64,000 bases of DNA from Escherichia coli. GTDB taxonomy: Bacteria > Pseudomonadota > Gammaproteobacteria > Enterobacterales > Enterobacteriaceae. Made by a program: the position numbers. Numbering within the stretch: the stretch's first letter is position 1; each line of letters begins with the position of its first letter. Location of the stretch: NCBI RefSeq assembly GCF_045037415.1, contig NZ_CP173438.1. One strand, given 5' to 3'. Shown piece after piece: positions 6,001 through 9,000 of this stretch.

Positions 6001-9000
6001 CATTTGTTTTATGCTAAGATTTTAAAATTGGATAATTAGAACAGGAATGGATTTTCTTCTACATACAGTAAATATAATGCGTCATATCTTCCTGATATAA
6101 TTACCTTTGACTTCTCTTTTATTTCCATCTGGTAATATTTGAGTGCAAAAAAAGGCAATAATAATATCGCAAAAGAAAACGTTAACAACTATCGAAAATG
6201 CTCGTTTTAAAAAGGTATGATGTTCTCTGATAGTGTGTGAAGTGATATTTTTGTGATGTTTTAGATATGTAATAATAAAATGGGTTAACGTATGTTGAAA
6301 TTATTTATTGTGCAAACCACTGATAGATCATAATCCAGTACATCTTTACAGTGCTGCACTGTATCGCTGATAACTAAGCAGCTCACTGATACACCATGCT
6401 GGACGCGATAATTGGAATCTCACGCAGGGAGTACTGTGTAAATAGCAAAATCGCCTGATGCGCTACGACTGTCAGGCCTACAAATAACATACAATTCATC
6501 GAATTATCATAACGTTGTAGGTCGGATAAGACGCGTCAGCGTCGCATCCGACATAAATAAAGCGCATTTTTCTAACAACCTGTGGGGGAATATAGCCGCT
6601 TTATTTCAGGCGATTACCCGCCTCATCAACCACTTTCTCGCCATCTTCCTTGGTGAACGCGCCTTTTTGCGCATCTGGCAGAATTTCCAGCACGACTTCT
6701 GAAGGGCGGCACAGGCGAGTTCCCTGTGGCGTCACCACAATCGGGCGATTAATCAGAATCGGGTGCTGAAGCATAAAGTCGATTAACTGATCGTGAGTAA
6801 ATTTATCTTCTGCAAGGCCCAGTTCCTCATACGGCTCGACGTTTTTACGCAGCAACGCGCGTACGGTAATCCCCATATCGGCAATGAGTTTTACCAGCTC
6901 ATCGCGCGTCGGTGGTGTTTCCAGATAATAGATAATGGTCGGTTCTGTACCGCTGTTGCGGATCATCTCCAGCGCATTACGCGACGTACCGCAGGCCGGG
7001 TTGTGATAAATGGTAATGTTGCTCATATCAGTATCTCATTACAATGTGAAAGAGAGGTGTAGCGCCAGCGCCACCAGCGTTACAAACCAAAGCGGACAAG
7101 TCAAAAACACATATGGTTTAACGAATATGTAAGTGTAGAGAAAGGTGTAGGTGTGAATTAAGCGTTGGGCATTCATTTGAAAGGAGGTCTGAATCAGGAC
7201 GTAAAAAAACCGACTTCGCGTCGGTTTTTTTACTGTTCAGCCCTGAGTTGGTGGCTCTGGCTGGAGTGAGATAGCCCACATCTAACAATGAGACATGCTC
7301 CGTGACAGGCAATGGATGAGTAAGCGGATGCATTCTCACTCCATCGCATGGAGAAAACGGGTGATTGATAAAGCAATCATCGTTCTTGGGGCGTTAATTG
7401 CGCAGCTGGAACTGATCCGCTTTCTGCTTCAGCTTCTGAACTGATAGCGGAAACGTAGCTAAGGGCTAAGAGCACACTACTCTTAGCCCTTTAACATTTA
7501 ACGCATTGTCACGAACTCTTCTGCTGCTGTCGGGTGAATGGCAACCGTGTTGTCGAAGTCTTTTTTGGTTGCACCCATCTTCAGCGCCACCGCGAAGCCC
7601 TGCAACATTTCGTCCATACCAAAACCAATGCCGTGAATACCGACAATCTTCTCTTCCGGTCCAATGCATACCAGTTTCATGCGACACGGCTGGCGGTGAG
7701 TGGTGACGGCGGTATACATCGCGGTGAAAGAGGATTTATACACTTTCACCTGATCGTCGCCGTACTGCTCGCGCGCCTGCGGCTCCGTTAAACCAACAGT
7801 ACCAATCGGCGGATGGCTGAAGACCACGGTCGGAATGTTGCTGTAATCCAGATGCTCATCCGGCTTGTTATTAAACAGGCGTTCAGAGAGACGGCGACCT
7901 GCTGCAACTGCCACCGGAGTCAGTTCCACTGCACCCGTGTTATCGCCCACCGCGTAAATACCTTCAACGTTGGTGTTTTGATATTTATCGACGACGATAT
8001 AGCCTTTTTCGTTGGTTTTAACGCCAGCGGCTTCCAGGTTGATGTTGTCATTGGCAGGCTCGCGACCAATCGCCCAAATCAGGCAATCCACCGTTTCACT
8101 GCGACCATCTTCCAGCTCCAGCGTCAGGCTGCCGTCGGCATTTTTCACCACCGCTTTCGGGATGGCGTTGGTATGCAACTGTGGGCCTTCGGCGTTCATC
8201 ACTTCGACCAGCGTTTCAGAGATCATCGGGTCGAAGCTGCGCAGCGGCGCATGTTTACGCACAAACAGATGCGTCTTCGCACCGAGGCCGTTAATCACGC
8301 CCGCCAGTTCAACGGCGATGTAACCCGCGCCAACAACCGCTACGCGCTCTGGCAAAGCCGGAAGGGCGAAGAAGCCATCAGAATCAATACCGTATTCCAC
8401 GCCCGGAATATCCGGGTGGCTCGGACGACCACCGGTGGCGATCAGAATATGATCGGCCGTGATGGTTTCGCCGTTGACTTCAATGGTTTTGGCATCAACG
8501 AAGCGGGCAAAGCCTTTGATTACATCAACGTTATTTTTACCGAGCACGTTCTCATAGGAAGTATGAATACGGTCGATATAGGCGGTACGGCTGGCGATCA
8601 ATGTTTCCCAGTTGAATTTATTGATAGTGGTATCAAAGCCGTAATCCGGGCCGTACATATGGATCGCTTCACGGATTTGTGCCGCGTGCCACATCACTTT
8701 TTTCGGCACACAGCCAACATTTACGCAGGTGCCGCCCAGCTCTTTGGCTTCAATCAGTGCGCATTTCTGGCCGTACATAGCCGCGCGGTTGATGGAGGCG
8801 ATACCGCCGCTGCCGCCGCCGATGGCGATGTAATCATAGTGTTTAGTCATGACATATTGTCCTTATCGTTGATTACCGCGATTGTAGCGCGAGACGTAAT
8901 AGGTGCCAGCAATGGCTGCAATTACTCTGGCACGATCCAGCTTACGGTGGCGTGCCCGGTGCCTGCTGGAACCAGTTTGCTGTGCAGCCACGGCAGCACG

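What the first reader, a model, noticed from the sequence alone, without database searches (positions are those of the whole stretch)
6601..7026. arsC present without arsR and arsB
The arsenate reductase gene is intact, but the regulator and arsenite efflux pump that precede it in the K-12 arsRBC operon are missing from the window; arsC now directly abuts the dinQ/gor spacer. A reductase without a linked pump would generate arsenite without dedicated export, and arsC would have lost its native ArsR-controlled promoter. This suggests either a lineage-specific deletion or an ars system located elsewhere in the genome.
Basis: partly seen in the sequence, partly recalled or inferred. Interest (0 to 1): 0.35.

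Follow-up and report, generated by a model that had tools for sequence, protein, structure and literature searches.

The report
Known arsR-arsB deletion leaving arsC
This E. coli window carries the already published deletion, typical of phylogroup B2 (the ExPEC lineage), that removed the arsenic sensor arsR and the arsenite pump arsB and left only the arsenate reductase gene arsC, so it is real but ordinary.

Summary
arsC (6601-7026, minus strand) is intact, and the 64-kb window holds no arsR or arsB. Against K-12, one blunt 1,684-bp deletion (NC_000913.3 3,648,492-3,650,175) removed the -10 and 5'UTR of the ars promoter, all of arsR, and arsB except its last 49 nt. That arsB remnant (7039-7087) and the ArsR operator with its -35 box (7099-7127) still flank the junction at 7087|7088. 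The arrangement is therefore derived, not ancestral. The same junction occurs in 1,111 of 5,426 complete E. coli genomes, always on the chromosome. K-12-like arsB DNA occurs in 4,330, so nearly all carriers have no arsB at all.

This is already published. Sütterlin et al. 2018 (PMC5923176) described arsC alone between gor and slp in phylogroup B2, with lower arsenite MICs. PMC9731454 reports the same for ST131.

New details found here:
- The exact end points of the deletion.
- A rebuilt, possibly constitutive promoter (TTGACT, 17 nt, AACGCT, preceded by TG).
- arsC still under purifying selection (dN/dS 0.14) and intact in all 14 carriers sampled.
- The identical junction in at least three chromosomal backgrounds.

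Seen in passing: a second 199-bp deletion has removed the SOS promoter of the neighbouring dinQ toxin gene.

The parts
6601..7026 (-). arsC, an intact glutaredoxin-coupled arsenate reductase of 141 aa
   Evidence: NF007456 scores 300.9 bits. The protein matches 1I9D over its full length. C12, R60, R94 and R107 are present. dN/dS against K-12 is 0.14.
7027..7038 (-). Native 12-nt arsB-arsC spacer (TGAGATACTGAT) carrying the arsC ribosome-binding region, unchanged from K-12
   Evidence: The sequence is identical to K-12 L001:6226-6237.
7039..7087 (-). Remnant of arsB: its last 49 nt (15 codons FVTLVALALHLSFTL plus the stop codon)
   Evidence: It aligns to K-12 L001:6177-6225. tblastn with ArsB residues 393-429 hits this region.
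7087..7088 (.). Deletion junction. K-12 positions 3,648,491 and 3,650,176 are joined, 1,684 bp are lost, and there is no microhomology.
   Evidence: The junction is shared by 1,111 genomes. The unmutated form is seen in strain HH45.
7099..7127 (-). Retained upstream half of the ars promoter: the ArsR operator (core CCATATGTGTTTTTG, 7116-7102) overlapping the -35 box TTGACT (7104-7099)
   Evidence: It aligns to K-12 L001:4453-4481. An R773-type ArsR site quoted from Xu et al. 1996 in PMC7606416 has a very similar sequence. The -35 assignment comes from inspecting the sequence.
7076..7084 (-). Inferred hybrid -10 element, TG-T-AACGCT, made from arsB codons and lying 17 nt from the native -35 box
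   Evidence: This is an inference only. The native K-12 promoter is TTGACT-17-GACACT, HH45 has TTGACT-17-GACGCT, and other B2 strains have AACTCT.
7201..7285 (-). Single agrB-type antisense sRNA gene with its terminator hairpin (7233-7201). Its 5' end is a hybrid repeat fused to dinQ sequence.
   Evidence: (RF02891, 91.6 bits).
7254..7444 (+). Truncated dinQ unit. The ORF (7361-7444) and the mRNA from +88 onward are kept. The promoter, the LexA boxes and +1 to +87 are deleted.
   Evidence: No CTG-N10-CAG motif occurs in 7027-7500, whereas K-12 has one at L001:3983.
7498..8850 (-). gor (glutathione reductase), the flanking core gene
6390..6455 (+). 22-codon C-terminal remnant of a convergent ArsR/SmtB-family gene that is intact downstream of arsC in many non-B2 strains
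   Evidence: tblastn E 4e-5; WP_001175589.1.

Best explanation
The window comes from an E. coli with the phylogroup B2-type allele at this locus. It is near-identical to SK1144, and its junction is identical to that of the ST131 strains JJ1886 and EC958.

Shown: a single old, blunt 1,684-bp deletion removed four things. These are the -10 and 5'UTR of the ars promoter (36 nt), arsR, the arsR-arsB spacer, and 1,241 of the 1,290 nt of arsB. arsC keeps its own ribosome-binding spacer and start codon. The cell therefore has no arsenite sensor and no ArsB pump.

From the literature: such strains have lower arsenite MICs.

Inferred: arsC is still transcribed, and constitutively. The deletion joined the native -35 box and ArsR operator to a -10-like hexamer preceded by TG, at the native 17-nt spacing, and no ArsR is left to repress it. 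Also inferred: ArsC still reduces arsenate using glutathione and glutaredoxin, and the arsenite it makes can leave only by non-dedicated routes such as the GlpF channel.

Shown: arsC remains under purifying selection and is intact in every carrier sampled. The same junction sits in at least three different chromosomal backgrounds. The inference is that it arose once and moved between lineages by homologous recombination.
For: Deletion end points and remnants.

Same junction across genomes: 1,091 genomes by megablast and 1,111 by blastn, all on chromosomes. Carriers include EC958, JJ1886, LF82, NC101, Nissle 1917 and APEC O1/O2.

arsB absent from carriers: arsB-like DNA is found in only 4,330 of 5,426 genomes.

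arsC identity.

Selection on arsC: dN/dS is 0.14 against K-12, with dS (0.18) like that of gor (0.15) and rlmJ (0.19). B2 against non-B2 gives 0.09-0.27. arsC is an unflagged, intact CDS in 14 of 14 carriers sampled, with 7 protein alleles.

Shared junction in different backgrounds: in O145 RM9154-C1, UTME-3, PapRG-06-5 and HH45, the flanks, arsC and gor are not B2-like. The junction variants form a nested series.

Literature: in B2, only arsC lies between gor and slp, and arsenite MICs are below 128 mg/L without arsRB (PMC5923176). ST131 isolates lacking arsR and arsB had the lowest As(III) MIC (PMC9731454).
Against: No expression data for arsC in any carrier were found. The hybrid -10 matches the consensus at only 2 of 6 positions, and it differs among carriers (AACGCT, AACTCT, GACGCT). 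The simple promoter scan finds nothing here. That scan also misses the native arsR, agr and dinQ promoters in K-12, so its silence says little.

dN/dS on comparisons involving B2 is about twice that among non-B2 pairs, which fits some relaxation of constraint. Only 14 of the 1,111 carriers were checked for an intact arsC. No strain was phylotyped here; the B2 assignment rests on strain names and the literature. The rest of this genome is unseen, and at least 15 carriers do have an arsB-like gene elsewhere.
Confidence: 0.85

Rival explanations
1. arsC is a silent, decaying relic. The deletion destroyed the only promoter, the gene is not expressed, and it is intact merely because too little time has passed.
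For: The native -10 box and transcription start are gone. The pattern scan finds no promoter. dN/dS is higher on B2 comparisons (0.09-0.27) than among non-B2 pairs (0.04-0.10). Three amino-acid changes are specific to B2: D78H, R80Q and K138N.
Against: dN/dS is well below 1, and the catalytic residues are kept. arsC is intact in 14 of 14 carriers from at least three backgrounds whose junction flanks have diverged by up to 13%. Sütterlin et al. found arsC in all isolates. The -35 box, the 17-nt spacing and a TG-preceded -10-like hexamer are conserved in all six aligned carriers. The promoter scan also misses known promoters.
Confidence: 0.2
2. The ars system has simply moved. This genome carries arsR and arsB (or another arsenite pump such as Acr3) at another locus or on a plasmid, so arsC still works with a pump.
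For: 4,330 genomes with arsB plus 1,111 with the junction exceed 5,426, so at least 15 genomes have both. arsB-like sequences occur at 73 places on plasmids. The rest of this genome is not in the window.
Against: The overlap is tiny compared with 1,111 carriers. All study isolates without arsRB had arsenite MICs below 128 mg/L, and no plasmid-borne ars operons were found. The ST131 isolates lacking arsRB had the lowest MICs. Acr3-type pumps were not searched for.
Confidence: 0.05
3. The arsC-only arrangement is ancestral, and arsR-arsB were inserted in the other lineages.
For: None beyond the bare gene order.
Against: The 49 nt upstream of arsC encode the ArsB C-terminus and stop codon. The sequence beyond the junction is the ArsR operator and -35 box. 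Phylogenies of arsRBC and of ribosomal genes agree (PMC5923176).
Confidence: 0.01
4. The identical junction in B2 and non-B2 backgrounds reflects recurrent deletion at a hotspot rather than one event spread by recombination.
For: HH45 has K-12-like sequence right up to both sides of the junction. Both break points lie 7 nt upstream of a GAC-N-CT hexamer (GACACT and GACGCT).
Against: The junction is blunt, with no shared bases at the break points, so nothing would guide repeated breakage at the same nucleotides. The junction variants form a nested mutational series, as expected from common descent.
Confidence: 0.05

Closest known systems
Phylogroup B2 arsR-arsB loss described by Sütterlin et al. 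2018 (AAC 62:e00209-18, PMC5923176) and seen again in ST131 by the 2022 PLoS Pathogens study (PMC9731454)
   Same: Same locus and same gene order (gor, dinQ, arsC, slp). The chu/shu haem genes lie about 5 kb beyond. arsC is retained, and loss rather than gain was inferred. Published phenotype: lower arsenite MIC.
   Different: Nothing essential differs. In the passages read, those papers give no break points, no promoter analysis and no selection analysis. They note only in passing that some phylogroup E isolates share the B2 gene order. This report adds the exact 1,684-bp junction, its identity across backgrounds and its frequency (1,111 of 5,426 complete genomes).
E. coli K-12 chromosomal arsRBC operon (b3501-b3503)
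   Same: arsC is orthologous (133 of 141 residues identical), with the same arsB-arsC spacer and the same ArsR operator and -35 box.
   Different: arsR is absent and arsB is reduced to 49 nt. The native -10 box and 5'UTR are replaced by arsB coding sequence. Arsenite-inducible, ArsR-repressed control cannot operate.
Plasmid R773 ArsC (PDB 1I9D), a glutaredoxin-coupled arsenate reductase
   Same: Full-length collinear match with E 1.4e-83 and the same catalytic Cys12 and Arg60/94/107.
   Different: R773 arsC is the last gene of an arsRDABC operon that includes an ATP-driven pump. Here arsC stands alone.

Membership tests
Glutaredoxin-coupled arsenate reductase ArsC (NCBIfam NF007456 / TIGR00014; R773 class) | Full-length match above the curated family cut-off | tested here: met
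   NF007456 scores 300.9 bits against a cut-off of 242. TIGR00014 scores 136.1 against 106.05.
Glutaredoxin-coupled arsenate reductase ArsC (NCBIfam NF007456 / TIGR00014; R773 class) | Catalytic Cys12 and the Arg60/Arg94/Arg107 triad (residue roles from the R773 ArsC literature, recalled from my own knowledge) | tested here: met
   C12, R60, R94 and R107 are present. The alignment to 1I9D has no gaps.
Glutaredoxin-coupled arsenate reductase ArsC (NCBIfam NF007456 / TIGR00014; R773 class) | Arsenate reduction that depends on glutathione and glutaredoxin | not testable with these tools
   This needs an enzyme assay.
Chromosomal arsRBC operon | arsR repressor gene at the head of the operon | tested here: not met
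   tblastn finds no ArsR (best E 0.09, a chance match inside dinQ). K-12 L001:4529-4882 lies within the deleted interval.
Chromosomal arsRBC operon | arsB arsenite/antimonite:H+ antiporter gene | tested here: not met
   Only the last 49 nt remain.
Chromosomal arsRBC operon | ArsR operator overlapping a sigma-70 promoter upstream | tested here: inconclusive
   The operator and the -35 box are kept, and the native -10 box is replaced by a -10-like hexamer. Function was not tested.
B2-type arsRB deletion allele (Sütterlin 2018) | Only arsC lies between gor and slp, with the chu/shu haem cluster about 5 kb beyond | tested here: met
   Gene order in the window is gor 7498-8850, arsC 6601-7026, slp 4849-5415, dctR, chuS 3081-4109 and chuA 1050-3032.
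B2-type arsRB deletion allele (Sütterlin 2018) | Membership of phylogroup B2 | not tested
   chuA is present, and the junction is 100% identical to JJ1886 and EC958 (ST131). No formal phylotyping was done. The same junction also occurs with non-B2-like flanking sequence.
B2-type arsRB deletion allele (Sütterlin 2018) | Reduced arsenite MIC | not testable with these tools
   Published for other isolates only.

The most novel reading that the evidence does not exclude
By chance the blunt deletion rebuilt the ars promoter: the same -35 box and operator, the same 17-nt spacing, and a -10-like GACGCT/AACGCT preceded by TG in place of GACACT. arsC would then be expressed constitutively, free of ArsR. 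On this reading the allele was carried by recombination into at least three E. coli backgrounds and kept arsC intact because ArsC has a selected role that does not need ArsB. That role could be low-level arsenate detoxification with passive arsenite exit, or a substrate unrelated to arsenic. Alternatively, loss of arsRB is itself advantageous in the host-adapted niche.
Probability: 0.2. Interest if true: 0.4.

Novelty: already known. Interest (0 to 1): 0.15.

Why it matters
It explains why B2 and ExPEC clones such as ST131, ST73 and ST95 are the arsenite-sensitive E. coli, but this is already in the literature. The added details give a one-PCR or one-k-mer marker for the allele. They also pose a small, testable question: why is a reductase that makes the more toxic arsenite kept intact in more than a thousand genomes that lack the pump? 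Finally, they show that a loss allele can move between phylogroups by recombination. None of this changes the current understanding of arsenic resistance.

Tried and rejected
- The consensus promoter and terminator scan of 6500-7520 found no promoter and one weak terminator-like hairpin inside the arsB remnant. The same scan on K-12 misses the known arsR, agrA, agrB and dinQ promoters, so I treated it as uninformative.
- A Pfam scan of the five small ORFs lying between 7010 and 7441, including the 45-aa chimeric ORF that ends in the ArsB tail, found no family. The idea of a hidden short regulator was rejected.
- A search for a second ArsR-family gene near arsC found only a 22-codon remnant at 6390-6455.
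- Literature searches for arsC expression in UPEC or ST131 and for UPEC transcription-start maps gave nothing usable. The single 'arsC' hit in a CFT073 RNA-seq table was yffB, a different ArsC-family gene.
- A full-text search for the K-12 ars promoter sequence found no paper. The two ArsR binding-site papers gave the operator sequence but not the -10 box or the transcription start.
- A search for literature on dinQ variation in B2 found nothing.
- I considered a genome contigs or metagenome scan for outgroups and did not run it, because the remnants already settle the polarity of the change.
- Microhomology at the junction was looked for and not found.
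Full report
**What is in the window.** The window is an E. coli chromosome segment. It is collinear with strain SK1144 (NZ_AP018784.2), with 6 mismatches over the first 50 kb. The gene order is chuA, chuS, dctR, slp, a yhiS remnant, arsC, dinQ, gor, rlmJ, prlC. ORF 6601-7026 on the minus strand encodes a 141-aa protein. It scores 300.9 bits against NCBIfam NF007456, glutaredoxin-dependent arsenate reductase, whose cut-off is 242. It aligns over its full length, without gaps, to the solved R773 ArsC structure 1I9D (E 1.4e-83). It keeps Cys12, Arg60, Arg94 and Arg107; the catalytic roles of these residues are recalled from the R773 literature. 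tblastn of K-12 ArsR and ArsB against all 64 kb finds only a C-terminal ArsB fragment just upstream of arsC, and nothing significant for ArsR. The SK1144 annotation of the same stretch lists no other ars gene.

**Anatomy of the deletion.** I aligned the window to K-12 MG1655 (L001 = NC_000913.3 3,644,000-3,656,000).
- Window 7287-7090 matches the agrB gene and the sequence upstream of arsR (L001:4293-4490).
- Window 7087-5607 matches L001:6177-7670, which is the last 49 nt of arsB, arsC, and the start of yhiS.

Reading the junction base by base shows that K-12 L001:4493-6176 is missing. This is NC_000913.3 3,648,492-3,650,175, or 1,684 bp. The lost interval comprises 36 nt upstream of arsR, arsR itself (354 nt), the 53-nt spacer, and 1,241 of the 1,290 nt of arsB. 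The two ends share no bases, so the junction is blunt.

On the arsC side, 49 nt remain (7039-7087). They still encode the ArsB tail FVTLVALALHLSFTL plus its stop codon, followed by the unchanged 12-nt spacer and the arsC start codon. On the other side the ArsR operator remains (CCATATGTGTTTTTG, 7116-7102), overlapping the -35 box TTGACT (7104-7099). This is very similar in sequence to an R773-type ArsR site that PMC7606416 quotes from Xu et al. 1996. The other condition, a hidden short regulator in 7027-7360, also fails. That region consists of the arsB remnant, the operator remnant, one agrB-type sRNA (Rfam RF02891, 91.6 bits) and dinQ sequence. None of the five small ORFs lying between 7010 and 7441 matches any Pfam family.

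**How common it is.** The 101-nt junction sequence (7040-7140) is found at full length in 1,091 complete E. coli genomes by megablast and in 1,111 of 5,426 by the more sensitive blastn. It is always chromosomal and almost always present once. Carriers include JJ1886 and EC958 (ST131), LF82, NC101, Nissle 1917 and APEC O1/O2 strains. I know these to be phylogroup B2; no strain was phylotyped here. K-12 arsB DNA, searched at a sensitivity down to about 65% identity, is found in only 4,330 of 5,426 genomes. The two counts sum to 5,441, so at least 15 genomes have both. Essentially, though, carriers of the junction have no arsB anywhere. Acr3-type pumps were not searched for.

**Already published.** Sütterlin et al. 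[quoted passage not shown] They report that all isolates lacking arsRB had sodium arsenite MICs below 128 mg/L, and that all isolates above 128 mg/L had arsRBC or arsRDABC. [quoted passage not shown] The 2022 PLoS Pathogens study of Bangladeshi isolates (PMC9731454) found three isolates lacking arsR and arsB. All three were ST131/B2 and had the lowest As(III) MICs. The finding is therefore real but known.

**What drives arsC now (inference).** By inspection, and by analogy with the R773 promoter as I recall it, the native K-12 promoter reads TTGACT, 17 nt, GACACT. The deletion begins inside the spacer. In the window the result is TTGACT, then 17 nt ending in TGT, then AACGCT (7081-7076). Other B2 strains have AACTCT, and strain HH45 has GACGCT. 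The -35 box, the spacing, the A at position 2 and T at position 6 of the hexamer, and a TG one base upstream (an extended -10 feature) are present in all six carriers aligned.

With no ArsR in the cell, a promoter like this would be constitutive. The transcript would start near 7069, about 43 nt upstream of the arsC start codon. I could not test this. The pattern scanner finds no promoter here, but it also misses all the known promoters of the K-12 arsR-gor region. I found no transcript data for arsC in any B2 strain. The strong agrB terminator (7233-7201) makes read-through from upstream unlikely.

**Is arsC still under selection?**
- Against K-12, arsC has dN/dS 0.14. Its dS (0.18) is like that of gor (0.15) and rlmJ (0.19), so it is the native B2 allele and not an import.
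- Comparisons between B2 and non-B2 alleles give 0.09-0.27. Pairs of non-B2 alleles give 0.04-0.10. This suggests about a two-fold relaxation, but the values are far from neutral.
- arsC is an intact, unflagged CDS in all 14 carriers I looked at, with seven different protein alleles.
- The sample is small compared with 1,111 carriers, so a silent relic cannot be excluded. I give that view 0.2.

**One origin, several backgrounds.** Sixty-four carriers have junction sequences only 80-95% identical to the window. I fetched four of them: O145 RM9154-C1, UTME-3, PapRG-06-5 (from a baboon) and HH45. All four have exactly the same break points, but their flanks, arsC alleles and gor alleles are not B2-like. 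HH45 is K-12-like throughout.

The junction variants form a nested series. HH45 has the unmutated join CCGCTTCG|GTTTGTGAC. PapRG-06-5 adds two substitutions. The O145-type strains and all B2 strains add a third change. A blunt junction has nothing to guide repeated breakage at the same bases. I therefore infer a single event followed by transfer through homologous recombination, and I leave the direction of transfer open. This is consistent with Sütterlin's remark that some phylogroup E isolates have the B2 gene order, although none of these four strains was phylotyped.

**How it most likely works.**
- Shown: there is no sensor and no pump, and an intact reductase remains.
- From the literature: carriers are arsenite-sensitive.
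- Inferred: ArsC is made constitutively at a modest level and reduces arsenate that enters through the phosphate transporters. The arsenite product can leave only by non-dedicated routes, such as the bidirectional GlpF channel (from my own knowledge). The arrangement therefore gives little or no resistance.

Why arsC persists is open. It could be weak selection for arsenate handling, an unknown second role (a question Sütterlin et al. also raise), or simply incomplete decay.

**Side observation.** The window lacks a further 199 nt that other B2 strains (729_270514, GmF046) and K-12 still have. The break lies in the direct repeat shared by the dinQ 5'UTR (the agrB target, +88 to +119 of dinQ mRNA according to PMC5066626) and the 5' end of the agr sRNA gene. 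With the GUG start codon at 7361 corresponding to +195, homology to dinQ stops at +88 (7254). The LexA box (CTGGATAATCATACAG in K-12), the dinQ promoter, +1 to +87 of the mRNA including the +44 processing site, and the native agr promoter are all gone. The fusion sequence is at least 99% identical in 769 complete genomes. The same short arsC-dinQ spacing (335 nt) is seen in Nissle 1917, LF82, KC-Dl-1 and HH45. In these strains the dinQ/agrB type I toxin-antitoxin pair is probably silent, although pipelines still annotate dinQ.

**Verdict.** The interpretation as a lineage-specific deletion is correct but already published. The claim that the promoter was lost needs qualifying. Interest is low (0.15). 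The only mildly novel points are the exact junction, the possibly rebuilt promoter, and the spread of this loss allele across phylogroups.

Noticed in passing
window 7254-7290 (fusion point); compare L007:1128-1660 and L001:3897-4062: A second, 199-bp deletion lies between the agr repeat in the dinQ 5'UTR and the agr sRNA gene. It removes the LexA box, the dinQ promoter, +1 to +87 of dinQ mRNA and the native agr promoter. The dinQ ORF (7361-7444) is still annotated but is probably not transcribed. The fusion 101-mer is at least 99% identical in 769 complete genomes. The same short spacing is seen in Nissle 1917, LF82, KC-Dl-1 and HH45.
   Followed up: partly
window 7201-7285; L001:4064-4145 and 4295-4376: K-12 has two agr sRNA genes (agrA and agrB). 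All four B2 strains aligned (window, 729_270514, GmF046; Z0117EC0036 by spacing) have only one, of the agrB type by its downstream flank. O145 and UTME-3 carriers keep the K-12-like long spacing.
   Followed up: partly
L012-L016 (O145 RM9154-C1, PapRG-06-5, HH45, UTME-3): The identical blunt arsRB deletion junction occurs in chromosomes whose gor, arsC and flanks are not B2-like. The junction variants form a nested series, which suggests that a loss allele was transferred between phylogroups by recombination. The direction of transfer is unresolved.
   Followed up: partly
window 6390-6455 (+): This is a 22-codon C-terminal remnant of a 98-aa ArsR/SmtB-family regulator gene (WP_001175589.1). 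The gene is intact and convergent with arsC in many non-B2 strains (2012C-4502, 13P477T, JSWP006). HH45 has a short annotated fragment of a 'transcriptional regulator' at the same place.
   Followed up: partly
window 7039-7176 (-): The deletion created a chimeric 45-aa ORF that reads from the old ars promoter region into the ArsB C-terminal tail. It has no Pfam match, and its start lies upstream of the inferred promoter, so it is probably meaningless.
   Followed up: yes
window 5605-5984 and 6440-6560: Between slp and arsC lies a yhiS remnant. The window aligns only to the first ~380 nt of K-12 yhiS, and the rest, together with the IS5 insertion present in K-12, is absent. REP-like palindromes (weak naRNA4 matches in Rfam) lie just downstream of arsC.
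   Followed up: no
L016:3770-5868 (strain HH45): HH45 has a partly deleted chu haem-uptake cluster next to dctR. chuU, the ATP-binding gene and a chuY fragment remain, and chuA/S/T/W/X are absent there. This is an unusual state for a locus used in phylotyping.
   Followed up: no
window 7059-7074 (-): A short GC-rich hairpin followed by a T-rich run lies inside the arsB remnant, in the inferred arsC 5'UTR. One terminator-like site was found in the region against 0.9 expected by chance, so it is probably not significant.
   Followed up: no
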